NCBI GenBank assembly: GCA_003427395.1
Contig: BFEA01000007.1
Span: forward strand, 2,045,738-2,109,737
Direction: 5' to 3'
Length of the DNA: 64,000 nt
Source of the DNA: Chara braunii
Taxonomy: Eukaryota > Plantae > Charophyceae
The position numbers and the translations under genes are program-made. Positions within the stretch are counted from its first letter, which is position 1; each line of letters begins with the position of its first letter. The notes below the pieces were generated by a model that was not told the origin of the DNA, ran no database searches, and saw only the letters and a list, made by a program, of their open reading frames with translations. This document shows positions 1 to 38,200 of this stretch, piece after piece.

Positions 1-10
1 GCCCGCCGCT

Positions 11-517
11 ATGGGGGGCCCTCGACTGTCAGGAGTATGTAGGGATGAGGCGGTGATGACAGAGAGGGTTCATGAGGAGGGACCCCGAGAGTTGGACATG
101 CCAGAGCGCGGGCCAGGGAGTGCGGTCGCACGAGGAGGTGAGGGTGCTAAGGCTATGGAGCCTGGACCTCAGGACCACGTGGGATTGCCCTTGTGTCATG
201 AGGTGACTACTGAGACCATGGGGGCGCCTTCGGCATCAAGTTCGCAAGGAAGAAAGAAGAAGACTGCCAGGTGGCACGATACCTCCTGTTTTTGGTGCAA
301 GGAGGGAGGGCATAGGGCCGTGGACTGTCAAGAGCTCCTTGAGGATAAGGTCAAGGGGCGAGTCGCGGAGGTCGACGGTAAGTTCTATGACAGACAGGGC
401 AAGATAGTGGAGCGAGCTCCAGATGGGGGCAGGGCTCAGTTGTATAGACAGAACCAGAAAGAATTGTGTAAGTACGGACCGGTCTGTCTATATATTGGTA
501 GGACTAGATGTCCTTGA
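11..517 (+). pseudogene. Gag-like retrotransposon ORF fragment with CCHC zinc knuckle (probably the 3' end of a longer ORF starting upstream of the window)
   Basis: CFWCKEGGHRAVDC fits the CX2CX4HX4C nucleocapsid motif; followed by non-coding DNA homologous to the retroelement at 39-53 kb. Confidence 0.75.
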
Positions 518-4523: not shown

Positions 4524-6328
4524 GGAGTTTCCGTCGCTGTTCGTGCGCAGTGAGTCGGTGTGTTGACGACAACATAGCGGGGTCGAATGAGGAAGCGGGC
4601 GAGCGAGAGGGACATGACGGAGAGGAGAACGAGCGAGGGAGGAGGCGGTCAGGCAGGCGCAACACCAAGCGTTTGGGAGGCAGCGCTAGCAGCGAGGGGA
4701 GGGCGATTGAACCCGGGCTGGAAAGTGTGCCAGGTACCTAAGGAGGGCGCAAGGGTGGCGAAGCAGGCTGACTGCACCCAGTCGGTGGGCGGTGCCAGGT
4801 GCATTCGGGACTCGAGGTGGTAGCGACAGAGAAGTGCGAAGGAAGGGCGGTGACATCGCTCGATTGCTTGGCGAGAACGAACGAGCGGAGGTGCGAGTTC
4901 GGGGTTCCTCGCTACGGTGGACCCGAAGTTGGGGTCAGTTTGGTTAAGAAGTTAATAGATAGAGAGTAAGGGGGAGGAACTGCTGCGCAGTGATAGCACG
5001 AAGGGATGGATATGGTCGGGCACTGCGAAACGGCTAGCTGAGCAATAGCATTGGCTTTGACGAGGGAGTAACGGAGTCTTCTAGCGCGATTGTTGGGGTC
5101 AGCGCTCGGGAGTGCTGGAAGAGGGGATGAATCTCTCCGCTTTCTTGTGGAAGATTCAGTTGTATTAGTCCTACTCTGCTAAGGGGTGTAATGCCAGGCG
5201 GACTGTTGCCGGGGACTTACCTGCCGGCCGAAAGCGCCACTCCACCGATTGGTCGACGCCTGCGGGTACAGAGAGGGAGGGATACTTACCAGTAGGCTTC
5301 GGGAACTTGAGTTGGAGGCCGTATTGAGAGGGGAAGCAGGGCAAGGAGAGCGATGGACAATTGGTGAAGGATGCTTGGGGGAACAGGGGAATGCTGAGAG
5401 GGAGAGAAAGGGAGGGGAGACTTACCTGCAGGCGATAGCACGGCTCGTTACATTGGCCAAGGAGCAGGGGGATAGGGGATCCATTTGCTAACCAGCATAC
5501 TGTCGGGCAAAGCGGGCTACGAGCTTGCAGGTCTACCTTCTATACTGCGGGTGGTTGAGGCAGACGAAGTGTGGCCGCCTTTCGATCTGCAAATTCCTGG
5601 GAGCCCTGCTGTCTGCTTGAGCAGGCTTTAGGCTACAGCAGTTGCTGCACCTACCGGTGGGTTGATGTGCTGCAGTTGATTCGGCTGTGCGGACTGCTGC
5701 AGGCCCGCTGTGTGTTGTGCTTGCTGGGCTTCCGCTGCACCCCGAGGCGCGGGTTCGCTGGGCACCTCCGGATCTTTGCGAAGGCGTACGCGGTTTGAGC
5801 ACCGCTGTTTAGAGCCGCACGGCTGCAACCTCATTGCAAAAAAGGGGGGGGGGGGGGTTGATATCGACAGTGTGACTGGTGTTGGGTCAAGCGGTTGCTA
5901 CTAGGCCGCCATTGCGGGGCCCTCAGGCGCGGAAGAATTGAAAACCCTCTCAAGCGAGTCTGAGTGGTTCTTTTCTGAGTCTGAGAGTTTGAAACTTCTT
6001 CTTCTGCCTCCCCGACTCTAAGTCTGGTCCTTGGTTCTGAGAGGAAGGCGGCAGGCGGGCGTGTGGCCCGTAACCCGCGCCAAGGCCTTTGTGGGAGGTC
6101 GCCCCACCGATTGCGGGACCTCTGCCGGGACTCAGGCGGAGTCCTGGAGGCAGGGAACTGAGTGGTAAACCCTTGACTCCCTCTATAAACCCTTCTATAA
6201 CCCCTACCTGTATATCTTTCTATGGTTTGTTGATTGCCTGAAAGCAAACTATGAATGAGATGGGTTGTATCTGGGGGAAAGTTGGGAGGAAGGCAGTATT
6301 GTGTGCAGCTTGACTGGGTCATTAAGGC

Positions 6329-7600
6329 TGGGAGGTCCCCTTAAGTTTGGGGAAGCCCAACGCTTTGTTTATTTTTGGACTGCATGGAGCCTCATGCCGC
6401 TCTATAAGTTTAGGTAGCCTGAAGCTCTGGAGGGCTGGGATGTCCCCATAAGTTTGAACAGTCATTTCGTCAAAACGGACATATTATATTTTTTGAACGA
6501 AATCAAAACTGACGTTTTTTGCCAAAATCCGGTCGGAATTTTTTGCTCATGGGGGTCCGGCGTTCCCAAAACGCCGGACCCCCCTGGTCTATGGTTGAGA
6601 CCAGATACAANAAAAAAAAAAAAAAAAGTATCTGGTCTCAACCATAGACCAGGGGGGTCCGGCGTTTTGGGAACGCCGGACCCCCAGGAGCAAAAAATTC
6701 CGACCGGATTTTGGCAAAAAATGTCAGTTTTGATTTCCTTCAAAAAATATAATATGTCCGTTTTGACGAAATGGCTGTTTTTGGGGAGACCTGGTGCTAT
6801 GAACTGCATGGAGGGTCAGGACGCTCTATAAGTTTAGGTGTTCTGACTTCTCTGACTTGTGGGGGTTTGACTATGAGTGGCTTTCAAGAACCCAAGGCGC
6901 TCTATAAGTTTAGGTACCTTGGGTTGCCTCGCTTTGTTTGGGGTTTTCGCAATTTCTTTGGTGCTGGACGAGGAGGTGTGAACCGCTCTATAAGTTTAGG
7001 TGGTTCAACCCTTCTCTTGTTTTGTTTTTAGCGGATAATTCTGGCAGGGGACAGGCTGCTCTATAAGTTTAGGTAGCCTATCCCACTGCCTCGCACAGAT
7101 TGGATCAGAGAGAAACGAACCTGGTTGAGGATCAGACCGCTCTATAAGTTTAGGTAGTCTGACCCAATGCCTCCCACATGTTGAAACCCAATGGATATAA
7201 CTTGGCTATATTATGTTACTATGTTATTAAGAATAGGCTAGTCAGGCTGCTCTATAAGTTTAGGTAGCCTGACTATAGCTTATCACAACAGGAGAGAGTA
7301 CAACTAAAGAGATACAACTGAAGGTATACTTGGGCAGGCTGAGCAATGTTCTAAGTTGAGCGGCTCAGCCCTATGCCCCCTTGAAGATTAAGTTCATATA
7401 TATATATATATATATATAACTTGGCTATTTAAACAGCTTAGGGCGACTCGAGTGGTCTAGTCGGACGCCCAAAGAAAAGAGAAGTAGTTGTGCCCTCTGT
7501 TTGTGTATACCTGGCCAAGTCAGAACGCTCTATAAGTTTAGGTATTCTGACTTTGGGCGTGGTTAAGTTTGGTGCGCTTTGTAAGTTTAGGTGCCCTGAC
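6329..7600 (+). repeat. Array of ~12 hairpins with conserved core YGCTCTA-TAAGTT-TAGGTR and variable complementary stems
   Basis: Copies at ~6329, 6392, 6434 (split by the MITE), 6815, 6892, 6979, 7043, 7130, 7239, 7337, 7515 and 7571. Example: TAGTCAGGCTGC-T-CTA-TAAGTT-TAG-GTAGCCTGACTA at 7239-7275. Confidence 0.9.
6457..6779. mobile_element. Foldback MITE (~152-bp terminal inverted repeats around a short poly-A), 4-bp target site duplication TTTG
   Basis: 6457-6608 is a near-perfect reverse complement of 6628-6779; TTTG at 6453-6456 and 6780-6783; removing it restores CCATAAGTTTGGGGAG, as seen in units B and C. Confidence 0.9.
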
Positions 7601-7899
7601 CTATGCCGTATGTAAGTTGGGTATGAGGAGATAACTCACTGAAAGATCATGAACTATTGTTTGTTCAGACTGGCTTGGGGATGGTGAGAGTACTTACCTT
7701 CGTGGTTTGGCCTGCATGTGCCTCAGTGAGATTACTACTTGGTCTGGATTTTCAGGTTGACAGGTAGTTGCTTTAGAGGCTCGCCACGTGCTAGAGCGAT
7801 AGGAGTTAGGTCAATTTCTGCATTTTCTGAGCTGATTTTATTTTACTTAGATCGATTTTTGCATTTTTCTGAGGGCCGATACTATACTTGAACCTGTAT

Positions 7900-8460
7900 A
7901 AATTCTGGTAAGTTACTTTCTCTACGGGAAGCGCTGCCGAAATTTCTACAGATTCAAGGAGTTAGACAAATTTTCGACTTGTCAAAGTTCAGTTTGTCTT
8001 TTCGTCATATCCGACTTAGTAAAAATCTGGAAAGTCTCCTTTTCTAAAGGGAGTGCTGCTAAAATTTTTGCTAATTCAGGGAGTTTGACAAAACTGGGCT
8101 TTGGGATGTCAGAGTTAGTCTTAGGTTTTAAACTTGGCTTTGTATGAATTTTTGGGAAGCACTTTTCTAGGGGGAGTGCTGCCGAAATTTCTGCAAAACT
8201 GAGGAGTTAGCCAGATTCTGTCTAAGTTGAACCCAAGGTTGGGGGTTCAGTTCAACTTCGACTTGGTACGAATCTGGGAAATCCCCAATTTCAAAGAGGG
8301 GGGCTGCCCAAATTTCTGCTAAGTCAGAGAGATAGACAAAATTTGATTTTCAAGAGTTATGGAATACTTCTTCTTTTGATATTCGAGCTGGTAAAAATTT
8401 TGAAAAGGCACTTTTCCTACGGGGAGCGCTGCCAAAATTTTCCTAAATTAGCGAAGTTGG
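7900..8460 (+). repeat. Five diverged ~124-bp tandem units, each with a hairpin around GGGAGYGCTGCCGAAATTT
   Basis: GCTGCY at 7933, 8055, 8178, 8303 and 8428 (spacing 122-125 bp). Confidence 0.85.
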
Positions 8461-10867
8461 ATTACATTTTGACAGGTGACGATTCTGGCGATCCACCCTA
8501 AATAGGAAAGATTCAGCCAGGGTCTGCCTTTGCTTTGGGCACCGCTTCGAGGTAGATTCAGGCCTGGCTAGCTAGGAGGATTTGAGTGAGAATATGTTAT
8601 GGAGTCGTATTCTCCATACGTTCATGATCTCAGCTTGGGGATTGACCTGTCATGTGTTACAGGTCGTCTTGATCTTTCGATTCAAGATCAGGACTAGATT
8701 CAGCTTGATCCCTTGAGGATCGTCTTCTGTTGTCACTGATAAAAGGTCGGTTGCCGATTCGTCAGTCCTCGACTCAATTTCAACTCATTCCCCGTACTCA
8801 ACCTAAAAGGCTTTAGCCCTGGTGGTTTTTACTGTTTGTTAAGGGTTTCACCCGGACTTTTATTGAATGGTTACTTAACAAAGGTACTGAGTATTTAATT
8901 GAGGTTGGTTGGACTGGCGGTTGGGGCTTGCATGGCTAAAGCGAAGGGGTATGAGCATAGAGAATGGTTGGGGTTAACTCCGTGTAGTGTGTGTTTTGTC
9001 ACTTGATTCTTGGTGTGGTTGCAGGTATGTCCTGTGGCTCGGATTTGGATTTGGACTGCCTACGATTCTATATACATATGCATGGTTGTGAGGGGTCCCA
9101 CTGTGCCTGTGAGAAGTGATCATCATAACTCTATCCCCCTTCCGTATGTATGTGTGCATATACGTATGATGAGTGTTCGGGAGGCCTAAAAGGTCATGTT
9201 AGCAACTGCGTGAGAGTTGGGATTGACGGACAGGGAAAACCCTCCATCCTGCCTATTCTGCGTCTTGGGGATTTCTTAGTCGGACGTTGGTCCTGGGTCG
9301 GGATTCAAGGTCCTTGTCCAGGACATCCCAAGCCCCAGGCCCTGAAGGGGAGGAGTCTCCCCTCGCATAGAGCCTATTTACTTTGGCCGGCAGGGCACTC
9401 CGCCTGAAGGGCGGAAATGTCGCGAGGGCCGAACGGCATGTCCTTCAGCCATTCAATATCGTGAGGGGTAGCCCTTCGCGATGGGTTCCTTCAGCCATTC
9501 AACATCGCTAGGCCGATGCCACGGTTACCACATATGATTCGCATCAGTGGTTGGCATAGGGTTGGCCTGCGGCCGCACAGTTTTATATCAGAGCCCCGCA
9601 CGCGACGCCTCACCGCCCCAACGTCTAAAAGTTATGGGACCGTCGGGCTTGCGCGTAGGCGCAGCGCTTGGGATTATCGTAGGCCGCCGACACCGCCCAC
9701 AAACGGGAAGTGTGTCCCAAGGCCATGAGTTTTTTTTGTTTTAAAGGCCATAAGACCTTTGCCCTATCCCCTCTTCTTGGGTTCGTGCGAGTCTTGTTGC
9801 TTCTTAGAGATTTTTTATAGTTGGACGTTGTAGTCCGTGACAGCCGTCAAAGTCAAACCCCTTGATTTTCACCCAGATCCCGGGGAGGACTCACCCCTAG
9901 GGCCGCGAGAGACGACTACCACCACAGGCATGGGCCTGTGTACCACCCGCTCTGCATAAGGGTGCAGAAGAGGGTGTGTGGTCTCCAACCACGCATGGCG
10001 GTTGTCTAGCGTTGAGAGATTAACCCTCAAGGCGCGTGTCAGCCGACACTTGAGTGTCGAACGCGACCCTCGAGATTAACGAGGACAGCGAGAGTACGAG
10101 TACCACGTGGTACGCCATCGTTGCGACCGCTTACGTGCGCTTGCATCGCGAGTCGATATGAGTTAGCCCTGTGTCCGCGTGATTTTTATACTAAGTCTCC
10201 TGCGCGACGCCTATCCAATTTCCGCGTCAGGAAGTTATAGGTTGGCTAGCGAGGGGAAAGGAGCGTTGTCGCGTTGTTTGCGTTGTGTCGTTTCGTGTGT
10301 ATGTGTGCGTGTTGTTGTCGTGTGGTTGTTAAGTGGTGTGCACGTGGGGTGTGGGATACGTCCTAGTCGACCGACAATGAGTCGCGCTTGGGACTTCAGC
10401 CCCCCAAGAGGTCGGTTCGCGTGCGAGTCCGATAGGGGCGTATTTACCGCGTGTACCCCCTATGCTACAGCGAACGAGAAACGCCCTCGGCTGCTCCACC
10501 TCTGCGATTGCAACTGATTAACTTTCGTACTGTGGACTGGTAGCTCGGCGGGGATACGCCCACCGAAGGGAGGTGACAACTCCCGTAAGGTGGAGGTAAG
10601 TTGTGCCTCGCGTAGGCCCTATCCTATCGTAGGGGCTCGCGAGAGGTATGGCTGACGCACTCGAACAGGGCGGCCCAAGGACGCTCCATTTGTGTATTCG
10701 TGACGAGGTTGGTCCAACTCCTGCGTGACGCGGCCGAGAGGGTCCCGCACTGCCACTCGCGGTGCCGGACCGATGCGCTCGACACTGTTTACCCTTGCTG
10801 CTACGCTCTGGCCGCAGTCACCAAAGAAAATAGAAGCTTCTCATAACTTTGACACAAGGTGCGTGAG

Positions 10868-10905
10868 CTGTCTCTTATACACATCTAGATGTGTATAAGA
10901 GACAG
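10868..10905. other. Nextera mate-pair junction adapter (assembly artefact)
   Basis: Exact CTGTCTCTTATACACATCT+AGATGTGTATAAGAGACAG (two Tn5 mosaic ends), flanked by a duplication of 10673-10867 at 10906-11100. Confidence 0.98.
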
Positions 10906-13900
10906 GCCCAAGGACGCTCCATTTGTGTATTCGTGACGAGGTTGGTCCAACTCCTGCGTGACGCGGCCGAGAGGGTCCCGCACTGCCACTCGCGGTGCCG
11001 GACCGATGCGCTCGACACTGTTTACCCTTGCTGCTACGCTCTGGCCGCAGTCACCAAAGAAAATAGAAGCTTCTCATAACTTTGACACAAGGTGCGTGAG
11101 AGAGAGAGAGAAAAGAGAGAGACAGAGAAAGAGAGAAAGAGAGAACAGGAGAAAGATAGAGAAAACTTGTTTGCTACGGTTGAAAAAGAAGAAAAGAGAC
11201 GAACAATAAAAATACGTATGTTGAATACCTCTTTCCTATCATTCGACTTTCAGTCTCGAGCCTATTCTTACTGTGTACTGCTGTTTACGCTCGCTTCTGC
11301 CCTCTTGACACTTTGCAGCGGGCATGGCCCGCGACGCGCCTTTACTTGTAATAAAAATAATAAAACCGAATGTATGTTAGCGGAATCTTCAGTCAAGCAT
11401 AAGAGGGGAAAAAAATAAAAATGATAAATATAATATTTTTAATACTATCGTTATTAATCAAAATAACGATCAATAATAATAATGATAATAAATAACATAT
11501 ACAGGTTCCCTTCCCGATTTCGATACGGTCACGAAGAAAATACATTCACTTTCAAGGTTGTTGATCAGTATTTTCACTCGGAGGTAAGGGTTGTTTCTCT
11601 TGCTCCCTCTTTCTTCCTTTTTTTTTTTTTTCTTCAATTTTTCTTTCCTCTCGTCACCTTACTAGCCTGTGTTTGACTAGATATCAATAGAATAATATCT
11701 TCTTGGTAATAGCGATCACGGGGCTTAATGATTATTAGATGTATAGATTTACAAGTCGAAGGAACTTACCTCTGTTGATCTGATTCCTTCGATATCCTAT
11801 CGAGTGATATCGCCGAGGAAAACGAACTCCTTCACGAGATATGTTCCACAGTACACGTTGAAAGCACTACCTCTATCGACTGCGACCAGATTGTCGAGCG
11901 GGTGGGTCTTTCCCTTTCCTCCTTCTCTGAATCTTTCCTCTCCCACCAAGTGTCCTCTTATCACCTCGCCTCCTTTTCTCATTCCTTTTCCACGCGGGTG
12001 CTACTCGCTCTTGCCCCGGTGATTTTCTGATCTTTGTTAGCCCTCGTTGCTTTCTCTGCGCCTTCGTCAGATATCTTCTTCTCTTTCATACATCCGCTCG
12101 CAGTTAGTGCACTAAGATTCCTTCGCTTACGCCTTTGTTTTCTTGTTCACGCTCGCCTCATCCTATATGAATGTTTACCAACTCGGGCTTCGTCCGTGAC
12201 TTTCCCCGATCTTGCTTCTGTAAGCGTCGGTGAACTTCCACCGTACCCTGTTAGTCTCCCAAGGCCGAAAAACCTGCCCTTCACATCTGGGCAGACTCAG
12301 TTTTTGTGTTCACATAGTAGGTGAAAATACTTACGTTAGTAGTCAGAATACAGAGGTTAGGATTATCTACGCTCAAAGTCAGTTAGTTCGCTCTACTCCA
12401 ACTGTCTCAACACTCACGTAGGTGTACCTGTGTTACGTGTTTTGTCCTCATAGTTCTCGTTTGCTTACCGATTTCCTTTTGACTTCGTGAACTTTATCCT
12501 TATCCTAGGCAGTATTCCAACCCTACGAACTATCGAACTAAAACCCGGTCGCGCCTCGTGCGGACAACTGTCGAGTTTCTGCCACGGGCACGTGCCCAAA
12601 TCCTCATTCCTAATAATCTCACACATGATCTACAAGTCACGGTTTGATCGAAGGCGGGGTTTTTAAAGGGTCGGGCCTACCTTGTTTTTTTCATCAAAAA
12701 AAGTATGTTGAGAGGGCACGATGAACTCGATCCCCGTACCTTCGGCGCACCTGTACCTATTTGGCTAGCTCTTAGTTTGGTTAAGATAGGAAAAAACCTG
12801 CCATATGTAGAGTACAAGGTTTGGTTTTACGGGCATAACAAATTTATGGCCTGCCTTTTATGGTTAGTCTAGGCCGGCATCGGTAGTCGCTGCCTGGTAT
12901 GGTAGGGATCATGTTTTTCCTTATCTGCCCCGACCGCATGGTCGGAGTTATATTAATTTTTCAAGTTTGTTTTTGAGTCTAGGCTAGGAGTGCTAGGTTA
13001 GACATCCTTGGGCTCGAACTGATTTATTTTGTGTTACCGTTTGAACTTTTGACCGGTTTTATATCGTACCCTCTGCATCTCGCGCAACCACTCGCAGACC
13101 TTGCGACCGAAGTCTTTTAACTTTTATTAAATCTTATTATTTATCGTACGCGTTGTGTTAACATTTGTCGTCACTTAGCATCCCGGCCTCAGTGGTCGAG
13201 GAATCTGTCTCACGGTACTGTCGAGCGCATTGGTTTGGCACCGCAGGAAACGGGGCGAGACCCTTCCGAGCTCGTCACGCAGGAGTTGGTCTGATCCTCG
13301 TCGCGAATACACATGGAGCTTCCGCAAGCCGCTCCGGCCGAGTGCACCAGCCATACCTCTTGCGAGCCCCTACGACAGGATAGGGCCTACACGAGGCACG
13401 ACTTACCTCCACCTTACGGGAATTGTCACCTCTCTTCTGTGGGCGTTTCCCGCCAAGCTACCAGTCTAGAATACGAAAGTTAATCAATTGCAATCGCAGA
13501 GGTGGACCAGCCGAGGGTGTTTCTCGTTCGCAATAGCATAGGTGATACGTGCGGTTTTACGCCTCTATCGAACCCACAAGCGAACCGAAGTCTTGGGGGG
13601 TTAGATCCGAAGTGCGACTCGTCGCTGGTCGAGTATGACGCATCCCACACTCCACGCATACACCACTCTAAAGACATAAAAATAAAAACACACACACTCA
13701 CACGTTCAAAAAACGACACAGAACAAATAATGCAACACACTCCTAGTCCCTTAGTAGTCATCCCATAACTCTCCGATGCAGAAATCGGATAGGCGTCGCG
13801 CACCAGACTTAGTATAAAACCGCGCTGACGCAGGGCTAACTCATATGGACTCTCAATGCAAGCATACACAAGCCGACGCAATGATGACGTACTATATAGT

Positions 13901-14999
13901 ACCCATACTCATGCGGTCCTCGTTAATCTCGAGGGTCGCATTCGGCAGGCACGCGCCTTGAGCGAATGATCTCTCGACGTTGGACAACCGCCAAGTGCGG
14001 TTGAGAACCACACCCTCTTCTGCACCCTGCGGAGACTGGGTGGTACACAGGTTCATAGCTGTGTTGTTAATCGTCTCTTATTGCCTTGGAGACCAGCTCT
14101 TTCATCTAGGGCATCGAGATAAATCAAGAGGGTTGACTTTAACGGCTGCCACAGACTACAACGTTCAACTATAAAAAAACTATAAAAGAAAAGGATAAAA
14201 GAGGATCTCTTTTTTCTCTCAAAAACATAATCTGTTTAACTCTTACTCGCGGTCACAGTAGGTCGCGCGAAACACTCAAGACATATTTTTTTATATATAG
14301 AGAGAGGGTTATAAATATGTGACGATCACTTCTCACAATCAGAGTGGGACTCCTCTCAGCCATATATATATGTATGTGAGTGCAGGCAGTCAAATCCAAA
14401 GTACGAATCACCAAACATATCTACAATCACATCAAAGATTCAGCCAAAAGTCCGTGCACTGCACGGCGTCAACTTCAGCCATTCTCTGCACTCTTACCCC
14501 TCGCTTTAGCCATTCAAGCCTCACTCTTGTGCAACTCCTCAAAATAAAATACTCAATACTTTTCTTTAGATGGTTATTCAAATAAAGTCCGGACGGAAAT
14601 ACAACAAAACAGTTCAAATCACAAGGCTGAAGCCTTTAGGTTCAGTGACAAGAGTGAATTGGAGTTGGGTCGAAAACTGACGAATCGTCAACCGACTTGT
14701 TATTAGTGATAACAGAAGATGATCCTCTTGAGATCAAGTTGAATCTTATTCCAAATCCTGAATCGAGTGTCCAAAGAAGGCCTGTGTCATAAAACAAGTC
14801 AATGCCCAAGCTAAATCATCAGTGTATGGAGAGTGAATCTCCCTAACACATTCTCATCTAAGGTCCACCTACAAGCTAAGCCTAAACCTACAAGCTAAGC
14901 CTAGGCCTACCTCTAAGCCAGTGCCCACCGCAATGTAGAACTATGACAGTATTTCCCCTATTCAGGATGAATTACCACAATTGTCAACTATCAAAATAT

Positions 15000-15570
15000 A
15001 GTCTTACTCATTTAAACTAAGAAAATTTCGGCACCACTTCCCGTAGGAAAAGTGTCTTCTCAGAATTGATACTCGCTCAAATATGAAAACAAAAACCAAA
15101 CTCTAATTTTAAAAAATCAAATTTTGTCTAACTCCCTGAATTAGTAAAAATTTTGGCAGTACTCCCTTTAGAATGGTAGAACTCCCAGATTTATACTAAG
15201 TCAGATAGGACCTCAGAAGTCAAACTTGAGTTCGACTTCAAGACAAAGTTCAACTAACCCCTTAGATTTGTAGAAATTTCGGCAGTGATTCCCGTAGAGA
15301 AAGTGTTATTCCAAGATTTATTCAAAGCTAAATTAAAAAGTATAGAAAATAACTTTGACTTCCAAAAGTTCAATTTTGTTTTAACTCCTTCAATCAATAA
15401 AAATTTGGGCAGCACCCCCTTTAGAAAAATGAGACTTCCCAAATTTTTACTAAGTCATGTATATAATTTAGACAAACTGAGCTTTTGAAAATCTAAATTT
15501 GACTAACTCTTTGGTTTTGTAAAAAATTCAGCAGTGCTTCTCATTGAGAAAGTGACTTACCAATATTTAT
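15000..15570 (-). repeat. Five ~125-bp hairpin units (unit B copy of the second array)
   Basis: Reverse-complement motif at 15030, 15155, 15281, 15408 and 15530. Confidence 0.85.
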
Positions 15571-15893
15571 ATAAGACGAAGTATAATAAATGATTATATA
15601 ACACGAAATATAATAAATGATCCCAGAAAATGCAGAAATTGTCCTAAGTAAAAAAAAATTAGCTAAAAAATTGCAGGAATTGAAGCTAACTTCTATGACT
15701 CTAGCACGTGGTGAGCATCTAAAACAACTACCTGTCAAACTGAAACTCAGACTAAGTCGTAACGTCACTAAGTCACATGCAAGGCCAAACCACAAATATA
15801 AGTACTCTCACCATCCCAAAATCATCTTATCAAACAATAGTTCAAAGTCTCTCAATGATTTATCCCTTTATACCCAGTTTAAATAGGGCATAA

Positions 15894-16682
15894 AGCTAGA
15901 CCACCCAAACTTATGGAACATGTCTAGCTCATAGGGCAAAACAATTTTTCTCTTCTTTGGGCATATGACTAGGCCATCCTAGTCGTCCTGAACTATTTAA
16001 GTATCTAAGTTTTATATAACTATCTGCACTTAGTCTTTTGAGGTAGCATATAACTGAACCGATCATCCTTAGCTCGAGATTCAGTCTGCCCCTTCGTATT
16101 ACAAGTTTACTCTTAATTAGTACTCTCTTCAGTTGGTGATAAACTATAGTCAGACCACCCAAACTTATGGAACCTTGTCTGACTAACCTGTTCATAAGTA
16201 GGATAGTAATAAAGTATAGTCAAGTTATAACTTTTTGGTTTCAGCATGTGCATGACATTGGACCAAGACCACCCAAACTTATGGAACCTTTGCAGTCCTC
16301 CGTCCGATTCTTTCTCTTATCCAAAGCAGGAAGAGGCTGAGCCACCAAAACTTATGCGAAATTCTCAGACCTCCTCGTTTAGAACCAAAAGAAACTGGAA
16401 GAAACTCAAAGTAAACTAGGCGACCAGGCCACCCAAACTTATGGAACGTGCTCAAACCTCCTCGTTTAGAACCAAAAGAAACTGGAAGAAACCCAAAGTA
16501 AACAAGGCGTTCAAGCCACCCAAACTTATGGAAGATGCTTGGCCCCTGAAAAGTCATCCACAGACAGCCCTCGCAAGTCAGAGCAACAAGACCACCCAAA
16601 CTTATGAAACATGTCTGGTTCTCCAGGTAACTCAAAAATAAACATAGCACTGGGCCTCCCCAAACTTATGGAGACTTGCCCA
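15894..16682 (-). repeat. Array of 8 hairpins, core GTTCCA-TAAGTT-TGGGTG (unit B copy)
   Basis: CACCCAAACTTATGGAAC-type motif on + at ~15894, 16147, 16261, 16336, 16425, 16511, 16587 and 16651; most are flanked by complementary arms such as AGCTAGAC...GTCTAGCT. Confidence 0.9.
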
Positions 16683-20879: not shown

Positions 20880-21120
20880 CTCGGTTGTTCCCCCGTCATA
20901 GCACTCGGCCTTAGAGTCGTGCAGTAGGACTGCCCACTACCCTCTACTATCCCGAATGGAAACTTCGGAGGGAACCAGCTACTAGTCGGTCCGTCAATCT
21001 TCCGCCCCCATGCACAAGCTTGACGAGCAGTGTCCTTAGCTGGTACCGCTGCCAGCCCGCCACAGTCTCCTCCTATCCGCTCCACTTCGACAAAGCCCGC
21101 CACCACCTCGGGCCCTAAAT
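20880..21120 (-). pseudogene. Decayed fragment of cytosolic large-subunit (25S/26S) rRNA
   Basis: GGAAACTTCGGAGGGAACCAGCTACTAG (20958-20985) is the antisense of a universally conserved eukaryotic LSU segment at the LR5 primer site; weaker similarity continues on both sides. Confidence 0.85.
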
Positions 21121-21262
21121 GGGCAAACCCGCCACATGTAGGTGGATTGCAAAATCAGGGATGCTGGTCCGCTGCATATCTTGAAGGTAGTAACAAATAT
21201 TCAAATGAGAACTTTCGAAGCCCGAAGTGGAAACTCGCAACTCCATGCGGTGACAACCCGTG

Positions 21263-23400: not shown

Positions 23401-23632
23401 TTTTTCTTTGCCTTCCTTTTAAATAGGTGTTTGCTCTCTCCCATCCGGTCATGCAACAGATGCACCTACATTGATCCGTTCTTCTTTTTCACTACGAGGA
23501 CAACATAATTGACGTTACCGTGAAACGCACTTCTCCGCAATTACACCGACACCCCGAAATGGCCGTACCAACACAGACCGCCTATTACAACTTCACATAC
23601 CCGTCCTGGAACACACATTGCAAAATAGAACA

Positions 23633-29246: not shown

Positions 29247-29291
<45 letters not shown>

Positions 29292-32200
29292 AAGAGAAAA
29301 CAAGAGAAAGAGAGAAAAAACCTGTTTGCTACCGTTGAAAAAGAAAAAAAGAGACGAACAACAAAGATACATATGTTGAATACCTCTTTCCTATCATTCG
29401 ACTTTCAGTCCCGAGCCTATTCTTACTGTTTACTGATGTTTACCCTCGCTGCTGCCCTCTTGACACTCTGTCGCGGGCATGGCCCGCGACGCACCTTTAC
29501 TTGTAATAATTATAATAAAACCGAATGTATGTTAGCGGAATCTTCGGTCAAGCATAAGGGGAAAAAGAAATAAAAAATGATAAATATAATATTATTAATA
29601 CTATCATTATTAATCAAAATAACGATCAACAATAATAATGATAATAAATAACACATACAGACTCCCTTCCCGATTTCGATACGGTCAAGAAGAAGGTACA
29701 TTCACTTTCAAGGTTTTGATCAGTATTTTCACTCGGAGGTAAGAGTTTTCTCTATTTCTCTCTATTTCTTCCTTTTTTTTTTTCTTTTTTTTTTTTTTAC
29801 CTTACTGGCCTGTGTTTGACTAGATATCAATAGAATAATATCTTCTTGGTAATAGCGATCACGGGGCTTAATGATTATTAGATGCATAGTTATACAAGTC
29901 GAAGGAACTTACCTCTGTTGATCTGATTCCTTTTGATGTCCTATCGAGTGATATCGCCGAGGAAAATGAACTCCTTCACGAGATATGTTCCACAGTACAC
30001 GTCGAAAGCATTACCTCTATCGACTGCGACCAAATTGTCGAGCGGGTGGGTCTTTCCCTTTCCTCCTTGTCTGAATCTTTCCTCTCCCACCAAGTGTCCT
30101 CTTATCACCTCGCCTCCTTTTCTCATTCCTTTTCCACCCGCGTGCTACTCGCTCTTGCCCCCGTGACTTTCTGATCTTTGTTAGCCCTCCTTGCTTTCTT
30201 TGCGTCTTTGTCAGATATCTCATTCTTTTTCTGTTATCGGCTCGCAGTTAGCGCACTAACATTCCTTCTCGTACGCCTTTGTTTTCCAGTTCGTGCATGT
30301 CTCATCCTATATGAGCGCTTACCATATGCTCCACATTACACGCCGAAAACACTGCCTCTATCGACTGCGACCAGATTGTCGAGCGAAAGAGTCTTTCCCT
30401 TTCCTCCTCCTTTGAATCTTTCATTTCCCACCAAGTGTCCTCTTGTCACCGCGCCTCCTTTTCTCATTCCTTTCCCACCCGCTTGCTACTCGCTTTTGCC
30501 CCCGTGACTTTCTGATCTTTATTAGCCCTCCTTGCTTTCTCTGCGCCTTCATCAGATATCTCCTTCCCTTTCTTTCATCCGCTCGCAGCTAGCGCACTAA
30601 CATTCCTTCGCGTACGCCTTTGTTTTCCCGTTCACACTTGCCTCATCCTATATGAACGCTTACCAACTCGGGCTTCGTCCGTGACTTTCCCCGACCTTGC
30701 TTCTGCGAGCGTCGGTGAACTTCCACCATAACTTGTTAGTCTCCCTAGGTCGAGAAACCTGCCCTTCACATCTGGGCAGATTCAATTTTTGTGTTCACAT
30801 AGGAGGTGAAAATACTTACGTTAGTAGTCAGAATACAGAGGTTAGGATTATCTACGCTTTAAGTTAGTTAGTTCACTCTACTCCAACTGTCTCAACACTC
30901 ACATAGGTGTACCTGTGTTACATGTTTTGTCCTCATAGTTCATGTTTGTTCACCGGTTTCCTTTTGACTTCGTGAACTTTATCCTTATCCTAGGCAGTAT
31001 TCCAACCCTACGAACTATCGGACTAAAACTCAGTTGCGCCTTGTGCGGGCAACTGTCGGGTTTCAGCCACGTGCAGGTGCCGAAATCCTCATTTCTAATA
31101 ATCTCACACATAATCTACAAGTCACGGGTTCAAGCCTTGCTTGATCGAAGGCGGAGTTTTTAAAGGGTCATGTCTACCTTGTTTTTTCATCAAAAAGAGC
31201 TTGCCCAGATGGCAGGATGGACTGGATCCCCGTACCTTCGGCTTATGGATCCGCACCTGTACCTACTTGGCTAGCTCTTAGTTTGGTTAAGATAGGAAAA
31301 ACCCTGCCATATGTAGAGTACATGGTTTGGTTTTACGGGCATAACAAATTTATGGCCTGCCTTTTATGGTTAGTCTAGGCCGGCATCGGTCGTCGCTGCC
31401 TGGTATGGTAGGGATTATGTTTTTCCTTATCTGCCCCGACCGCATGGTCGGGGTTATATTAATTTTTCAAGTTTGTTTTTGAGTCTAGGCTAGGAGTGCT
31501 CCTTTCAGTTTCTTTTTCCATCTGCGGGTTTGACGTCCTTAAGCTAAAACTGATTTATTTTGTGTTACTGCTTGAACTTTTGACCGTTTTTAGATCGTAC
31601 CCCTTGCATCCCGCGCTACCCTTCTCAGACCTCGCGACCAAAGTCTTTTAACTTTTATTAACCCTTATCATTTACCGTACGCATTGTGTTAACATTTGTG
31701 GTCACTTAGCATCCCGGCCTCAGCGGTCGAGGAATCCGTCTCACGGTACTGTCGAGCGCATTGGTCTTGCACCGCACGAAACGGGGCAGGACCCTTCCGG
31801 CCGTGTCACGCAGGAGTTGGTCTGATCCTCATCGCGAATACACATGGAACTTCCGCAAGCCGCTCTGACCGAGTGCACCAGCCATACCTCTCACGAGCCC
31901 CTGCGACAGGATAGGGCCTACACAAGGCACGACTTACCTCCACCTTACGGGAGTTGTCACCTCCCTTCGGTGGGCGTATCCCCGCCGAGCGACCAGTCCA
32001 CAATACGAAAGTTAATCAATTGCAATCGCAGAGGTGGACCAGCCGAGGGCGTTTCTCCTTCGTTGTAGCATAGGTGGTACGTGTGGTTTTACTCCTCTAT
32101 CGGACCCTCTCGCGAACTGAAGTCTTGGGGGGTTCAGGTCCCAAGTGCGACTCGTCGCTGGTCGACTAGGACGCATCCCACACTCCACGCGTACACCACT

Positions 32201-33544
32201 CTAAAGACATAAAAATAAAAATACACACACACACACACGTACATAAAACGACACAGAACAAACAACGAGACACACTCTACACTCCTACTAGTCCCTTAGT
32301 AACCATCCCATAACTCTCCGATGCAGAAATCGGATAGGCGTCGCGTGTTAGCCTTAGTATAAAACCGCACTAACGCAGGGCTAACTCATATCGACTCGAA
32401 ATGCAAGCATACACAAGCAGACACAATGATGGCGTACTATATGGTACCCATACTCATGCAGTCCTCGTTAATCTCGAGGGTCGCATTCGACACTCAAGTA
32501 TCGGCTGACACGCCTTGAGGGAATGATCTCTCGACGTTGGACAACCGCCAAGTGCGGTTGAGAACCACACCCTCTTCTGCACCCTGCGGAGAGTGGGTGG
32601 TACACAGGTTCATATCTGTGTTGTTAATCGTCTCTTATTGCCCTGAAGACCAGCTCCATCATCTAGGGCCTCGAGAGAAATCAAGGGGGATGACTTTGAC
32701 GGTTGCCAAGGACTACAACGTCTTACTATAAAAACTATAAAAGCAAAGGATAAAAGAGGATCTCTCTTTTCTCTCAAAAACATAATCTGTTTAGCCCTTA
32801 CTCGCGGTCACAGTAGGTCGCGCGAAACACTCAAAACATATTTATTTATATGTAGAGATAGGGTTATAAATATGTGACGATCACTTCTCACAATCAGAGT
32901 GAGACTCCTCTCATCTATATATATATATATATATGTATGTGAGCGCAGACAGTCGAATCCAAAGTCCGAATCACCAAACATATCTACAATCACATCAAAG
33001 ATTCAACCAATAGTCCATACACTGCACGGGGTCAACTTCAACCATTCTGTGCACTCACACCCCTCGCTTTAGCCATTCAAGCCTCACTCTTGTGCAAACT
33101 CCTCAAAATAAAATACTCAATAGTTTTCTTTAAATGGTCATTCAAATAAAGTCTGGACGGAAACACAACAAAACAGTTCAAATCACAAGGCTAAAGCCTT
33201 TAGGTTGAGTGACAAAAGTGAATTGGAGTTGAGTCGTAAACCGACAAATCGGCAATCGACTTGTTATCAATGATAACAGAAGAGGATCCTCTTGGGATCA
33301 AGCTGAATCTAGTCCAAATCCTGAATCGAGTGTCCAAAGAAGGCCTGTGTCATAAAATAGGTCAATGCCCAAGCTAAATCATCAGTGTATGGGGAGTGAA
33401 TCTCCCTAACACATTCTCACCTAAGGTCCACCTACAAGCTAAGCCTAAGCCTACCTCTAAGCCAGTGCCCAACGCAATGTAGAACTATGACAGTATCTTC
33501 CCTATTCAGGGTGGATTACCACAATTGCCACCTATCAAAATATA

Positions 33545-34110
33545 GTCCAACTCCTTTAAACCAAAAAAATTTTGGCACCACTTCCCGTACGAAAAGTGTT
33601 TTCTCAGAATTTATACCAGCTCAAATATGAAAACAAAAACCAAAGTTTAATTCTGGAAAATCAAATTTTGTCTAACTCCCTGAATAAGTAAAAATTTGGG
33701 GAGTTCTCCTTTCAGAAAGGTAGAATTCCCAGATTTATACTAAGTCAGATAGGAACGCACAAGTCAGACTTGAGTTCGACTTTAAGACAAAGTTCAACAA
33801 CCCCCTTAGATTTGTACAAATTTGACAGTGCTTCCCGTAGAGAAAGCGTTATTCCAAGATTTATACAAAGCTAAGTTAAAAGTATAGAAAATAACTTTGA
33901 CTTTCCAAAACTCAATTTTGCTTTAACTTCTTAAATCAAAAAAAAATTGGGCAGCACCCGTTTTAGAAAAATAAGACTTCCCAAATTTTTATTAATTCAT
34001 GTATATAATTTAGACAAACTAAGCTTTTGAAAACCAAAATTTGACAAACTCTTTGGTTTTGTAAACATTTCGGCAGCACTTCTCGTAAAGAAAGTGACTT
34101 ACGAAAATTT
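33545..34110 (-). repeat. Five ~125-bp hairpin units (unit C copy of the second array)
   Basis: Motif at ~33574, 33699, 33824, 33950 and 34072. Confidence 0.85.
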
Positions 34111-34408
34111 ATAGAAGACGAAGTATAATAAATGATCCCAGAAAATGCAGAAATTGTCATAAGTAAAAACAAATTAGCTAAGAAAATGCAGGGATTGAAG
34201 CTAAATTATATGACTCTAGCACGTGGCGAGCATCTAAAACAACTACTTGTCAAACTGAAACTCAGACTAAGTCGTAATCTCACTCAGTCACATGCAAGGC
34301 TAAACCACAAATGTAAGTACTCTCACGATCCCAAAATCATCTTATCAAACAATAGTTTATAGTCTCTCAATGATTTATCCCTTTATACCCAGTTTAAATA
34401 GGGCATAA

Positions 34409-35213
34409 AGCTAGACCACTCAAACTTATGGAACATGTCTAGCTCAGCTATTCAGTATACATAAACTTAGGGCATAACAACTTTTCTCTTCTTTGGGCAT
34501 ATGACTAGACCACCCTAGTCGCCCTCAACTATTTAAGTATCTAAGTTTTATATAATTATCTGCACTTCGTCTTTTGAGGTAGCCATTAATTGAACCGATC
34601 ATCTTTAGCGCGAGATTCAGTCTGCTCCTTCGTATTACAAGTTTACTCTTAATTAGTACTCTCTTCAGTTGGTGATAAGCTATAGTCAGACCACCCAAAC
34701 TTATAGAACCTTGTCCGACTAGCCTGTTCATAAGTACGATAGTAATAAAGTATAGTCAAATTATAACTTTTTGGTTTCAGCATGTGCATGGCATTGGACC
34801 AAGACCACCCAAACTTATGGAACCTTTGTGGTTCTCCGTCTGATTCTTTCTCTTATCCAAAGCAGGAAGAGGCTGAGCCATCAAAACTTATGGAACATGC
34901 TCAGACCTCCTCGTTTAGAACCAAAAGAAACTGGAAGAAACTCAAAGTAAACTAGGCGACCAAGCCACCCAAACTTATGGAACGTGCTCAGACCTCCTCG
35001 TTTAGAACCAAAAGAAACTGGAAGAAACCCAAAGTAAACAAGGCGGCCAAGTCACCCAAACTTATGGAACATGCTCCCTGAAAAGTCATCCACAGGTAGC
35101 CCTCGCAAGTAAGAGCAACCAGATCACCCAAACTTATGAAACATGTCTGGCTCTCCAGGCAACTCAAAAATAAACATAGCACTGGGCCTCCCCAAACTTA
35201 TGGAGACTTGCCC
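34409..35213 (-). repeat. Array of 8 TAAGTT-loop hairpins (unit C copy)
   Basis: AAACTTAT core at eight positions, corresponding to those in unit B. Confidence 0.9.
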
Positions 35214-38200
35214 AACCTTTGATTGACCCAGTCAGACACAAGCAAAACTGCCTTCCTCCCAACCTTCCCCAGATGCAATCCCACAATCTGCTTTCAACCA
35301 ATACAATAAAAATTGAAACCGAATTTGCACAATCATCCTTTTATCAAGTCTGGTTTATGTCCTGAAGTCAAACTGAAAGTCAAAGTAGGGAGACGGACAA
35401 TATACTCAGTCAATTATAACAAAAAATATAGCTAGAGGTTTTACTGGCTTTATCGAAGGAAAACAATTGTTACCATTCAATTCCCTGCTTCCAGAACTCC
35501 TCCTGAGTTCCGACAAAGCTCCCCCAATCGGTGGGCTGAGTCCCCACAGAGTCTTGATGCGGTCCTACAGATTGTAATCCTGCCTGCCGCCTTCCTTTCT
35601 GAACAGGATTAGACTGAGAGTAAGATAGATAGAAGGATGGGTTCTTGACTCTCGAGATACAGGAGAGGAACAAACTCAACTCCTAAGAGAGGGTCTCAAT
35701 ACCTTCATGCGTCTGAGGGCCCCGCAATGATGGCCAATACGAGCAGTCGGTAGTCAAACCACGACCAAGCGCAAGGCAGATAACACTCTGATAAACCTCC
35801 AAATCGCGGCGGTTACCTCCTCGCAGAACCTAGCCCTCCTCCTTCGATGACACTACCGTTTCTCGTGGTCTAAAAGTCGCAACGCAGCCTAGAAAGACTG
35901 CTATCGAATAAAGCATACCCTTGTCTTCTTACTCGAAGACCGATGTAAACAGAACGAAAATGTTGTAGCAAGGCACAACGCAGTGCACAATGAAATGCAA
36001 AAACATGCACAACCTAAATTAAGTGGGAATAAGTTACAAGCACCCGGTCAACAGTACTCCAGAATACTGCAGCAGTCCGCTAGTAGAAATAGCCTGGGAT
36101 AGTAATATGACTGAGCCTGGAACGCGACATTAATGGCCCCCCAATCTATCTCAACAGCAACCCAACTGCAGACACAAAGGTCCGCAGTAGCCGTAGCAAC
36201 CATTCGTAGCAGAAATCTTGACAAGGCAACATGGCTGGCCACACAGCCAAACCACTGTCAAGGATACCACAATGATCAAACTGCCCGCGCGATCCACAGT
36301 CCCTCAATCACACACTAATGTCACCCCCTTTTACACCACCAGCTCCGCTTGCCAAATAGTTAATTCCTTAATTATTTTTTCTAACTTTTCTGCCCCTCCT
36401 CCTGCTTCCTCTTTTATACACCCTTTCTCCTTTCAAACATCCGTAACTCAATCTTGAGTTGTGAGAGTAGGAGACTCCACCTTGGCGTCAGTCTGTCACT
36501 TCTGTATAAACGAACAACTTGAAGCTCCCCCACGGATCAGGGAGGAGTCGCGGCATGTATAATGACGCTCTCAAGTAATCATGAGGTGATGAATCAGTGA
36601 GGTCATGAGCGTACTTAGCCTACACTAAGAGCACAAACGGTGTGTTCGAGAACACTATGTAATAGCGCTTGCCTTTCTGTTAAACTCTCGGTCTACTGTC
36701 CGCCCTCGTGTTCACATCTACGTCCCGACCAACAACCAACCTTGCCACCGAGCGGTGGACCTCACTCCACAGTTACTATCAGGACGAGCAACGCATGGAT
36801 CCACAGGTAAGTCTTCACCCCTTGGCCGACCCTTCACTCCCCCTGTCGGCAATCGGTGGGCGAGCCACAGATCAATCCACAGATAAGTCTCGAACCTTCA
36901 CGGCCCGTTGTCGGGGCAAATACCCTGACAAGGGTATTTGTCGAGGGTTTTCAAAGTCGGACGCTATCTGACTCTTTCGTTGAATTGGAGGACTTGATGA
37001 GACTGATGTTTGACAAAGTTTATTCAGATCAACCCTAGTGACTAAGACTTTTTGTGAATCAGACGTCGTTGACGTCTGACTAAAATGAATTTAGTTGCCA
37101 GTATGGTGGGTCGTTAGCAGTTCTTGATAGGGCGGCAGGGGCACGTGGTCGTGGAAAGACTAAAGGTAGACTATTCTATCTAAAAGACTGACGCGTGCCT
37201 GATGAGATGCGCAATTCAGGGCTTTAGTAGGTCAAAAGGTGGTCGCGTGAGAGGTCAGATCCGTGGTGCGCGAAAAAATTAGAAAGGGTTTTTTTTTTTT
37301 TTTTAAAGTTCGCGGAGGTACCGCGTACGCAGCTAAGGCTCATGGGCTAGACCACAAGCCGTTGGGCGAGAACGCCGCCGGCTCGGCGGCAGTGCGGCTG
37401 GTTAACGGAAAATACGGCAGGCCGAGCCTGCTTCGGCTGTAACAGATGGGTCTACTGAGGGGTACTTGCCGATTCGGTGGAGACGGCCCGACTTCTGAGA
37501 TCCGAGTCTTGCGCTCGGACGAGGAGGAGGAGTACCCCTGACCACTTCCTAGAGGGAGAGGCATGCAACACTTCAAGCAATGCCCCTGATCAAGAATCAT
37601 GCGCAAAGCAACTTGTCATCCAAAAATATTGGAAACGGATAAAGACTGGTATGTGCGTTGAATCTCAGATCGGCAGTAGACTGAAATGAATAACTTTGGC
37701 AACCCGTGTCATCAAGTTAAAATTTAGGAAGCCGACTACCTTGTCGGCTGCATTAAAATTATCGTCAATAGCCAACTTCTTGTTGGCGGTTGCATGATTG
37801 TTTTGTGGTGTTTGACCTGAGATGGTTAAATGTTGATTCTTTACGATGTAAGTATATGCATATGTTTTATTTTATTTCCTTTGACTGTGTGTTAAAGGGA
37901 CTAGGATTAATGTTGGGTTTCACGCTTCGTTGAGACCGTCCTAGTTGACTGGCGTTCGCTTCGTACTTGGCAGATCAGCGCCCTAAGGAACAGACGACGT
38001 TCGGGTTTGCTTGGCGTTAACCAAGCATATCTATACTACAGCGAACGAGCAAACGCCCTTGACTGACCTACCTCTGCAATTGCATCTAAACGTTTTCGCA
38101 TGTGGGTCAGTAGCTCGGTACGGATACGCCCCTAAGGGTGGTGACAAATCCTTAGGGAAGGAAAGCTTATGCCCTGTGTAAACCTATCCTTTCATAGGGG

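What the first reader, a model, noticed from the sequence alone, without database searches (positions are those of the whole stretch)
7900..8460. Second array: five ~124-bp units folding into G-U-rich hairpins, several with a cUACGg tetraloop
Seen: exactly five units in each of A, B and C, with a 122-127-bp period. Each can fold, e.g. AAATTCTGGTAAGTTACTTTCT-CTAC-GGGAAGCGCTGCCGAAATTT, CTCCTTT-TCTA-AAGGGAG and AGCACTTTT..GGGAGTGCT. The B copy at ~15040 reads TTCC-TACG-GGAA on the minus strand. Units tend to alternate between CTACGGG and CTAAAGGG types, suggesting a higher-order dimer. The many G-T pairs favour the same strand as the first array. Established: C(UNCG)G is an extra-stable RNA tetraloop. 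Inference: a second module of the same structured RNA. The alternative is phased DNA-binding sites about 12 helical turns apart.
Basis: partly seen in the sequence, partly recalled or inferred. Interest (0 to 1): 0.7.

Follow-up and report, generated by a model that had tools for sequence, protein, structure and literature searches.

The report
Hairpin array in a Chara LTR
This is a row of three to five long, imperfect fold-back repeats inside the roughly 4-kb end repeat of a very common jumping gene (a Ty3/gypsy retrotransposon) of a Chara-type green alga; they are predicted to fold in the element's RNA and likely serve as repeated docking sites for its own proteins, which is untested.

Summary
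The array is real but is not a free-standing RNA gene. Copies A, B and C are the ~4-kb LTR of a Chara braunii-type Ty3/gypsy retrotransposon: A follows the C-terminus of a PR-RT-RH polyprotein and a polypurine tract, and ends in CA. Each of 15 units (period 122-127) holds a ~70-nt irregular hairpin. Three more copies carry 5, 4 and 3 units, so five is not fixed; the layout is (odd-even)n + last. Across 27 units 78% of cells pair, with four double changes between the odd and even classes. Strand preference is moderate: clear in A (z -7.4 vs -3.2) and in a RIBOSUM consensus, absent in C; default RNAalifold finds nothing. A cUACGg loop is predicted in only 4 of 27 units. Poly(A) reads cover both strands and show no dedicated transcript. 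Best reading: a repeated RNA hairpin scaffold in the element's genomic RNA, likely bound by element proteins for packaging or dimerisation (about 0.4; RNA-level structure of any use about 0.6). Rivals: Sirevirus-like DNA cis-palindromes, a Dicer substrate, neutral slippage repeats. New variant of a known kind; moderate interest.

The parts
7885..8504 (+). Array 2, copy A: five units (starts 7885, 8007, 8130, 8255, 8380), each a ~70-nt irregular hairpin plus ~50-nt linker; classes odd, even, odd, even, last
14959..15583 (-). Array 2, copy B (five units, more decayed, 31% GC)
33503..34125 (-). Array 2, copy C (five units, 89% identical to B)
5859..10784 (+). LTR copy A (3' LTR of a Ty3/gypsy element): starts TG, ends CA; 4.9 kb including a nested insertion
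   Evidence: terminal region matches the N-terminus of gene model P0022
13219..17252 (-). LTR copy B, 4.0 kb; genomic contig depth 1.5e4-3.7e5 inside versus 20-300 in the flanking bins
31750..35785 (-). LTR copy C, 4.0 kb; no target duplication and no clear polypurine tract
2..475 (+). C-terminal end of a Ty3/gypsy polyprotein with a terminal CCHC-like knuckle (88% identical to residues 1785-1941 of P0005, which has protease, RT, RNase H)
5838..5857 (+). Polypurine tract (6 A + 14 G) one base before LTR A
6183..6190 (+). TATA-like box ~325 nt into the LTR, intact in A and B, changed in C; role as the promoter is inferred only
6340..7600 (+). Array 1: short hairpins with variable stems and a loop uniform within a copy but different between subfamilies; same strand as array 2
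7800..7880 (+). T-rich duplicated tract just before array 2, seen in all six copies; could be a poly(A) or 3' splice region (inferred)
10331..10784 (+). Most conserved LTR part (83-85% A vs B/C), predicted structured, shared at ~70% with a second, short LTR family

Best explanation
The array is a module of the LTR of a high-copy Chara Ty3/gypsy retrotransposon whose units are predicted to fold into long irregular hairpins in the element's RNA, and it likely works as a repeated docking scaffold for element-encoded zinc-knuckle protein (Gag or the polyprotein's end) that would mark the RNA for packaging and pairing of two genomes. Shown: LTR identity, unit classes, variable number (3-5), pairing potential with double changes. 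Established logic: every LTR base lies in the full-length genomic RNA at least once (U3 at the 3' end, R/U5 in the leader), so it passes through a single-stranded stage at each replication. Inferred: the array grew by duplication of an odd-even dimer and shrinks by deletion between units; selection kept the helix, its class-specific mismatches and a CUA-containing loop rather than the exact sequence. Guessed by analogy with retroviral packaging and dimer signals: the ligand and the step served; self-complementary linkers would allow pairing between two RNAs.
For: Host: ORF 2-475 is the end of a PR-RT-RH(-INT) polyprotein; polypurine tract, TG...CA ends; gene model P0022 begins in the LTR's 3' end and ends with the same polyprotein tail, so the repeat also stands 5' of gag elsewhere; depth steps at the LTR edges. 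Structure: 77.9% of 748 cells paired, 52 cells with double change against 25.6 +/- 4.4 shuffled, covariation 0.274 vs 0.199 (0 of 500 shuffles; relatedness inflates this), 39-53% paired when slid; four class-level double changes (pairs 4:73, 7:70, 11:66, 22:55) with G.U intermediates at several pairs; RIBOSUM consensus -18.2 on this strand (30 column shuffles: mean -4.6, best -11.1) vs -4.5 on the other (best shuffle -7.0); all five hairpins in both MFE and centroid of A on this strand only. Among genomic copies the hairpin cores attract 10-500 times the contig depth of the linkers, and 10 of 14 high-share variants in the outer helix keep or gain a pair, one as a double change. CTA in the loop in 22 of 27 units. 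Linker 1 and 2 can form a -33 kcal/mol duplex. Array 1 on the same strand shows fully variable stems around fixed loops.
Against: Default RNAalifold gives no pair on either strand. Copy C shows no strand preference by z; per unit z is -2.2 vs -1.9, 10 of 15 favouring this strand. G.U:A.C excess is not significant against composition, and several conserved A.C oppositions exist. The array is no more conserved than its surroundings (72% A-C, neighbours 64-85%). A three-copy consensus pairs unit 1 with unit 5 instead of locally. In the one deep RNA run reads lie mostly on the opposite strand if the usual library orientation holds (orientation not verified). A related 1.5-kb LTR family lacks both arrays. 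No binding, packaging or probing data; start and poly(A) sites unknown. Double changes can also arise by template switching in quasi-palindromes without selection.
Confidence: 0.4

Rival explanations
1. DNA-level cis-regulatory palindromes in U3, as proposed for Sirevirus LTRs: each unit is an inverted pair of A-tract half-sites bound by a host factor, or extruding as a cruciform; RNA folding is a by-product.
For: The invariant columns are the A/T-tract arms and a TGC motif; both strands fold better than shuffles in A and C; the start site is unknown and a second TATA-like tract lies downstream of the array in B and C; PMC4728375 (passages) describes such palindromes upstream of the TATA box.
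Against: Period varies 120-127 nt, so no helical phasing; the best TATA-like box lies upstream of both arrays; outer stems change sequence between classes while keeping pairs; consensus fold favours one strand.
Confidence: 0.2
2. The hairpins are Dicer-like substrates: a pre-miRNA-like cluster cut from LTR transcripts, either used by the element or exploited by the host for silencing.
For: Hairpins are ~70 nt with mismatches every 4-16 pairs, the size of pre-miRNAs; BLV has five hairpins in 554 nt (PMC13192155, passages); miRNA-like folds in maize TEs attract small RNAs (PMC10760457, abstract).
Against: BLV-type Pol III units fail: runs of 4 or more T lie inside 21 of 27 hairpins and no B-box consensus occurs in 6 of 6 arrays; no Rfam miRNA family at threshold; arm sequences vary between copies; no small-RNA data were laid.
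Confidence: 0.15
3. Neutral repeats: a quasi-palindrome made and multiplied by template switching and slippage of reverse transcriptase, kept only because LTRs are copied whole.
For: Copy number varies 3-5; contigs that skip 249-281 nt exist at low depth; identity no higher than flanks; a related LTR lacks the array.
Against: Three classes keep their order and class-specific mismatches in 6 of 6 copies that are about 70-80% alike; cores are better kept than linkers (76% vs 67%; depth); the first 330 nt of the LTR and the internal region show no folding excess.
Confidence: 0.17
4. RNA-processing control: the hairpins sit just after a T-rich poly(A)/3'-splice-like tract and hide a donor-like site in unit 1, and so regulate 3'-end formation or splicing in the 5' versus 3' LTR.
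For: T-rich tract ending in TAG in 5 of 6 copies; GTAAG in unit 1 of 4 of 6 copies, GCAAG in 2; 5 molecules begin at B 15674 in run X6.
Against: No spliced joint with RNA support among those listed; counts tiny; does not explain five units.
Confidence: 0.08

Closest known systems
Sirevirus (Ty1/copia) LTR palindrome arrays, maize Ji/Opie (PMC4728375, passages seen)
   Same: Repeated palindromic units inside a plant LTR, variable in number, predicted to form hairpins, sequence differing between families and loci.
   Different: There: 17-nt GC-rich palindromes, about 7 per LTR, before the TATA box, in copia elements. Here: ~70-nt AT-rich irregular hairpins in three classes, 3-5 per LTR, after the best TATA-like box, in a gypsy element of an alga, beside a second array of another design.
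Long-LTR plant Ty3/gypsy elements such as Del/Tekay (PMC4029996, passages seen)
   Same: Gypsy LTRs of 1.1-4.8 kb whose length varies; conserved ends.
   Different: The passages seen report CpG islands and att sites, not long hairpin arrays; the lineage of the Chara element was not tested.
Retroviral packaging/dimer signals with repeated GACG-tetraloop hairpins, MLV and relatives (PMC516450, passages seen)
   Same: Tandem stem-loops with short conserved loops in a retroelement RNA; UACG resembles GACG.
   Different: Those lie downstream of the LTR in the leader and are short; here they lie inside the LTR, are long, and the 4-nt loop is predicted in only 4 of 27 units.
BLV five-hairpin miRNA cluster and foamy-virus LTR miRNA cassettes (PMC13192155 passages; PMC7693620, PMC7104284 search listing)
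   Same: About five pre-miRNA-sized hairpins in about 600 nt of a retroelement.
   Different: Pol III boxes absent and T-runs inside most hairpins; units here are paralogous copies of one hairpin.

Membership tests
Ty3/gypsy LTR retrotransposon, LTR | Adjacent polyprotein with protease-RT-RNase H-integrase order | tested here: met
   Window 2-475 is 74-88% identical to the C-termini of P0005, P0013 and P0017, which carry PR, RT, RH or RT then integrase; the domains themselves lie outside the window
Ty3/gypsy LTR retrotransposon, LTR | Polypurine tract just before the 3' LTR | tested here: met
   A6G14 at 5838-5857 before A; none before B or C
Ty3/gypsy LTR retrotransposon, LTR | TG...CA termini | tested here: met
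   A and C start TG and end CA; B starts CG
Ty3/gypsy LTR retrotransposon, LTR | Two direct copies flanking one internal region, with target duplication and primer-binding site | tested here: inconclusive
   5' partner of A lies outside the window; no genome held; indirect support from gene model P0022; B and C show no target duplication
Structured cis-acting RNA | Covariation supporting the helix | tested here: inconclusive
   Above all 500 shuffles for cells and score but not for pair count (62 of 500); four class-level double changes; default RNAalifold empty; R-scape not available
Structured cis-acting RNA | Preference for one strand | tested here: inconclusive
   2 of 3 window copies and the RIBOSUM consensus; not C; G.U:A.C p 0.08 against composition
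Structured cis-acting RNA | Structure and ligand shown in RNA | not testable with these tools
   needs probing and binding assays
C(UNCG)G tetraloop hairpin | C-G closing pair around UNCG in the favoured fold | tested here: inconclusive
   Probability above 0.5 in 4 of the 11 units with the hexamer (3 last-class, 1 odd); 16 of 27 units lack it
BLV-type Pol III miRNA cluster | A/B boxes per unit and T-terminator only after the hairpin | tested here: not met
   No B-box in 6 of 6 arrays, one A-box hit; T4 or longer inside 21 of 27 hairpins (box consensus recalled)
Plant miRNA precursor | Precise miRNA/miRNA* excision in small-RNA reads | not tested
   no small-RNA run was laid; no Rfam match over the array
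Sirevirus-type U3 palindromes | Located upstream of the promoter | tested here: inconclusive
   Best TATA-like box is upstream of the array, a weaker one downstream; start site not mapped
Helically phased DNA sites | Spacing constant to within 1-2 bp | tested here: not met
   Periods 120-127 nt in six copies
Penelope-like (Chlamys) element with hammerhead | Hammerhead motif; PLE-type RT | tested here: not met
   Own motif scan printed no hit (strict, type-I only); no Rfam ribozyme; linked protein is gypsy-type

The most novel reading that the evidence does not exclude
This LTR is mostly a multi-kilobase structured RNA leader carrying two multivalent arrays: array 1 as a subfamily-specific recognition code (fixed loop within a copy, different loop between subfamilies) and array 2 as a modular scaffold or polycistronic hairpin cluster, read by the element's own zinc-knuckle protein to select and pair its genomes - a self-recognition barcode built into a retrotransposon LTR.
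Probability: 0.15. Interest if true: 0.75.

Novelty: new variant of a known kind. Interest (0 to 1): 0.4.

Why it matters
How plant and algal LTR retrotransposons recognise and package their own RNA, and why some LTRs grow to 4-5 kb, is poorly known. A family with very many genomic copies, modular hairpins and natural 3-, 4- and 5-unit variants offers a ready-made data set for covariation and a simple binding or probing test. If the array is only a silencing trigger or a neutral repeat, it still helps annotate one of the most abundant repeats of Chara. It is not a new free-standing RNA gene.

Tried and rejected
Whole-genome search: none held. Rfam over the window: no family at threshold; miRNA-like hits only on the perfect inverted repeat at 6457-6779; none on L001-L003. 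Default RNAalifold: empty on three alignments. Hammerhead scan: nothing. Pfam on 19 ORFs and on 91 of 104 stop-to-stop frames of 75 aa or more (13 low-complexity ones left out): only PIF1 domains. Pattern scans of viral and prokaryotic collections: 0 hits. No RNA holder listed in the run index (not evidence). Earlier findings: three look-ups, nothing. Rejected: element with long terminal inverted repeats from 13219 to 19827 (the right-hand part is a separate solo LTR with a 4-bp target duplication; depth drops between them); Helitron as host (it only lies between B and C); Chlamys PLE (PMC8557442, section 9 read). Homology of A's 4524-5857 stretch to the DNA upstream of B/C: one of four comparisons clearly above shuffles, so B and C being 3' LTRs is likely, not shown. 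Searches folded with T letters, which misses special-loop bonuses; tetraloop probabilities are taken (U letters), not. A recalled likeness of 20930-21030 to large-subunit rRNA found no Rfam support.

Full report
1. Observation. The window holds three copies of a ~4-kb repeat: A (+), B (-) and C (-); A is 70-79% identical to B/C, B and C about 90%. Each carries five units of the second array: A 7885-8504, B 15583-14959, C 34125-33503. A profile and a covariance model built from the units recover exactly these 15 in the window, plus weaker matches on their reverse strands. Periods are 122-127 nt. Each unit is a ~70-nt irregular hairpin and a ~50-nt linker; the linkers alone fold no better than shuffles (mean z -0.3 on both strands). 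Default RNAalifold finds no consensus pair on either strand; with RIBOSUM scoring the 27-unit consensus is -18.2 on this strand and -4.5 on the other, against column-shuffle bests of -11.1 and -7.0 in 30 shuffles, a crude null.

2. More copies. One pattern scan of the metagenome collection returned three short contigs of the same repeat, 70-82% alike to A-C. They carry 4 (L001), 3 (L002) and 5 (L003) units; short contigs may be misassembled, but genomic contigs skipping 249-281 nt inside the array also occur at low depth. A tree of all 27 units gives three classes: even (units 2, 4) and last (unit 5) each 100/100, the rest odd (1, 3).

3. Pairing evidence. On a fixed 28-pair structure 77.9% of 748 cells pair; cells with double change number 52 against 25.6 +/- 4.4 and the covariation score is 0.274 against 0.199 (0 of 500 shuffles), while the count of pairs with a double change is not exceptional (15; 62 of 500); sliding the register drops pairing to 39-53% (15-unit version). 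Relatedness inflates these numbers and the structure was drawn from these sequences. At class level four pairs differ on both sides between odd and even units (4:73, 7:70, 11:66, 22:55), and mismatches sit at class-specific places, leaving unbroken outer helices of 4-16 pairs. Opposed G.T outnumber A.C 66:33 in the 15 window units (p 0.001 against even, 0.08 against composition; units not independent) and 120:68 in 27 (the inner register is off by one for even units). Of 40 variants shown by the genomic lay (88 more not shown) I examined the 22 inside A's hairpins: of 14 in the outer helix 10 keep or gain a pair (one as a double change, 7891 with 7954), 1 stays unpaired and 3 break one; of the other 8, 2 improve, 2 break and 4 are unpaired (unphased, with cross-mapping between units). 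Hairpin cores draw contig depths of about 5e4-1e6 against 1e3-1e4 in the linkers and are 76% identical between A and C against 67% for linkers, but the array as a whole (72%) is no better kept than its neighbours (64-85%). The cUACGg loop is favoured in 4 of 11 units that have the hexamer, three of them last-class; CTA lies in the loop of 22 of 27 units. A three-copy consensus pairs unit 1 with unit 5 and linker 1 with linker 2 (duplex -33 kcal/mol), so arms are interchangeable and pairing between molecules is possible.

4. Host element. All named homologues of ORF 11-514 are Chara braunii proteins (3 of 3; 32 of 33, one unnamed). The ORF is the last ~157 residues of a polyprotein with protease, RT, RNase H and integrase in gypsy order (88% to P0005). 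After 5.3 kb of non-coding DNA with a gap comes a polypurine tract (5838-5857), then A, which starts TG and ends CA at 10784. Gene model P0022 starts in A's terminal region (10569-10646, 85%) and ends with the same polyprotein tail, so in another copy the repeat stands 5' of gag (a predicted model). Genomic contig depth is 1.5e4-3.7e5 between 13201 and 17205 and 20-300 in the flanks (not a copy number, but thousands-fold). B and C have no target duplication or clear polypurine tract; internal sequence related to A's lies upstream of C at 39662-40577, so they are likely old 3' LTRs, duplicated within a ~10-kb segment that flanks a broken Helitron Rep/PIF1 gene. I put LTR identity at about 0.9.

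5. Place in the LTR and expression. The first 330 nt show no folding excess; a TATA-like box follows at 6183 (intact in A and B); array 1, array 2 and the last kilobase are the folded parts. If transcription starts there both arrays lie in a very long R/U5 leader; a weaker TATA-like tract after the array in B and C would put them in U3. Either way they are in the genomic RNA (established LTR logic). Poly(A) reads from three runs cover the LTR on both strands, mostly at 80-95% likeness, that is from other copies (266, 6890 and 510 reads on the B stretch). On array 2 of A, run X6 gave 573 reads, about three to one on the orientation that in most stranded libraries means RNA opposite to the hairpin strand; X7 gave 16. 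Library orientation was not verified. No discrete transcript, end or splice joint was seen for the array. This neither shows nor excludes use in a rare genomic RNA, but gives no support to an abundant ncRNA.

6. Mechanism. Best guess (0.4): a repeated hairpin scaffold in the genomic RNA that binds the element's zinc-knuckle protein for packaging and dimerisation, by analogy with repeated tetraloop hairpins of retroviral leaders (PMC516450, passages). The neighbouring array 1 favours RNA-level recognition: stems vary freely around a loop that is uniform in one copy and differs, with compensatory closing pairs, between subfamilies. Rivals: DNA-level palindromes as in Sirevirus LTRs (0.2; PMC4728375, passages); Dicer substrate (0.15; the BLV Pol III design fails its test; PMC10760457, abstract); neutral slippage repeats (0.17); control of 3'-end formation or splicing (0.08). 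RNA-level readings together come to about 0.6.

7. Novelty. Palindrome and hairpin arrays in plant LTRs and LTRs of 4-5 kb are in print (PMC4728375; PMC4029996, passages). Searches of the held library for Chara braunii with transposon, gypsy/LTR, small RNA or hairpin terms and for LTR hairpin arrays listed no paper whose title or abstract start describes this array; only PMC8557442 was opened on Chara elements (passages and section 9). The Chara genome paper did not appear in these listings, and it or repeat libraries and supplements I did not see may already hold the LTR sequence. Verdict: new variant of a known kind; interest 0.4.

Noticed in passing
window 6340-7600 (+), 15900-16680 (-), 34420-35210 (-); L001 35-710, L002, L003: Array 1 hairpins have freely varying stems around a loop that is uniform within a copy but subfamily-specific, with compensatory closing pairs (CT/AG in A, CC/GG in B and C, TC/GA in L002) and a different motif in L001; stronger sign of RNA-level recognition than array 2.
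   Followed up: partly
window 6457-6779: Insertion with 152-bp near-perfect inverted arms around an N and an A run, flanked by a 4-bp duplication (TTTG), inside an array-1 hairpin of A; likely a collapsed DNA transposon or MITE. It causes the spurious Rfam miRNA hits.
   Followed up: partly
window 18375-19827 and 36909-38394 (+): Solo LTR of a second family (about 1.5 kb, TGTCG...GACA, 4-bp duplication CCGC in the first copy) sharing only the last ~450 nt, predicted structured, with the A/B/C LTR at about 70%; high copy; lacks both arrays.
   Followed up: partly
window 10331-10784 and homologues: Terminal LTR domain conserved across two families; five-copy consensus fold -96 kcal/mol with 18 of 129 pairs showing a double change; no Rfam match.
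   Followed up: partly
window 23400-27700 (+): Broken Helitron-type Rep/PIF1 helicase gene (PIF1 E 1e-58) between the two ~10-kb direct repeats 11014-21233 and 29168-39243.
   Followed up: no
window 10868-10905, 21980; 10672-10867 = 10905-11100: Transposase adapter junctions (label recalled) and a 196-bp exact duplication: assembly artefacts beside the end of A.
   Followed up: yes
window 44194-46700 (+): Decayed repeated coding domain without Pfam match; 71% to residues 206-288 of a Chara RT-containing gene model (P0004).
   Followed up: partly
window 16939-17205: Strongly one-stranded poly(A) read peak in runs X5 and X7 (30:1 and 60:0.3) whose reads continue into unrelated sequence: a piece of this LTR's 5' part is expressed from some other locus.
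   Followed up: no
window 20930-21030 and 38950-39050: Stretch that recalled reverse-strand large-subunit rRNA; Rfam gave no support.
   Followed up: partly
window 53226-53642 (-): Remnant of another gypsy polyprotein (37-40% to P0032/P0037); partial copies of A's internal region at 48934-50128 and 39662-40577.
   Followed up: no
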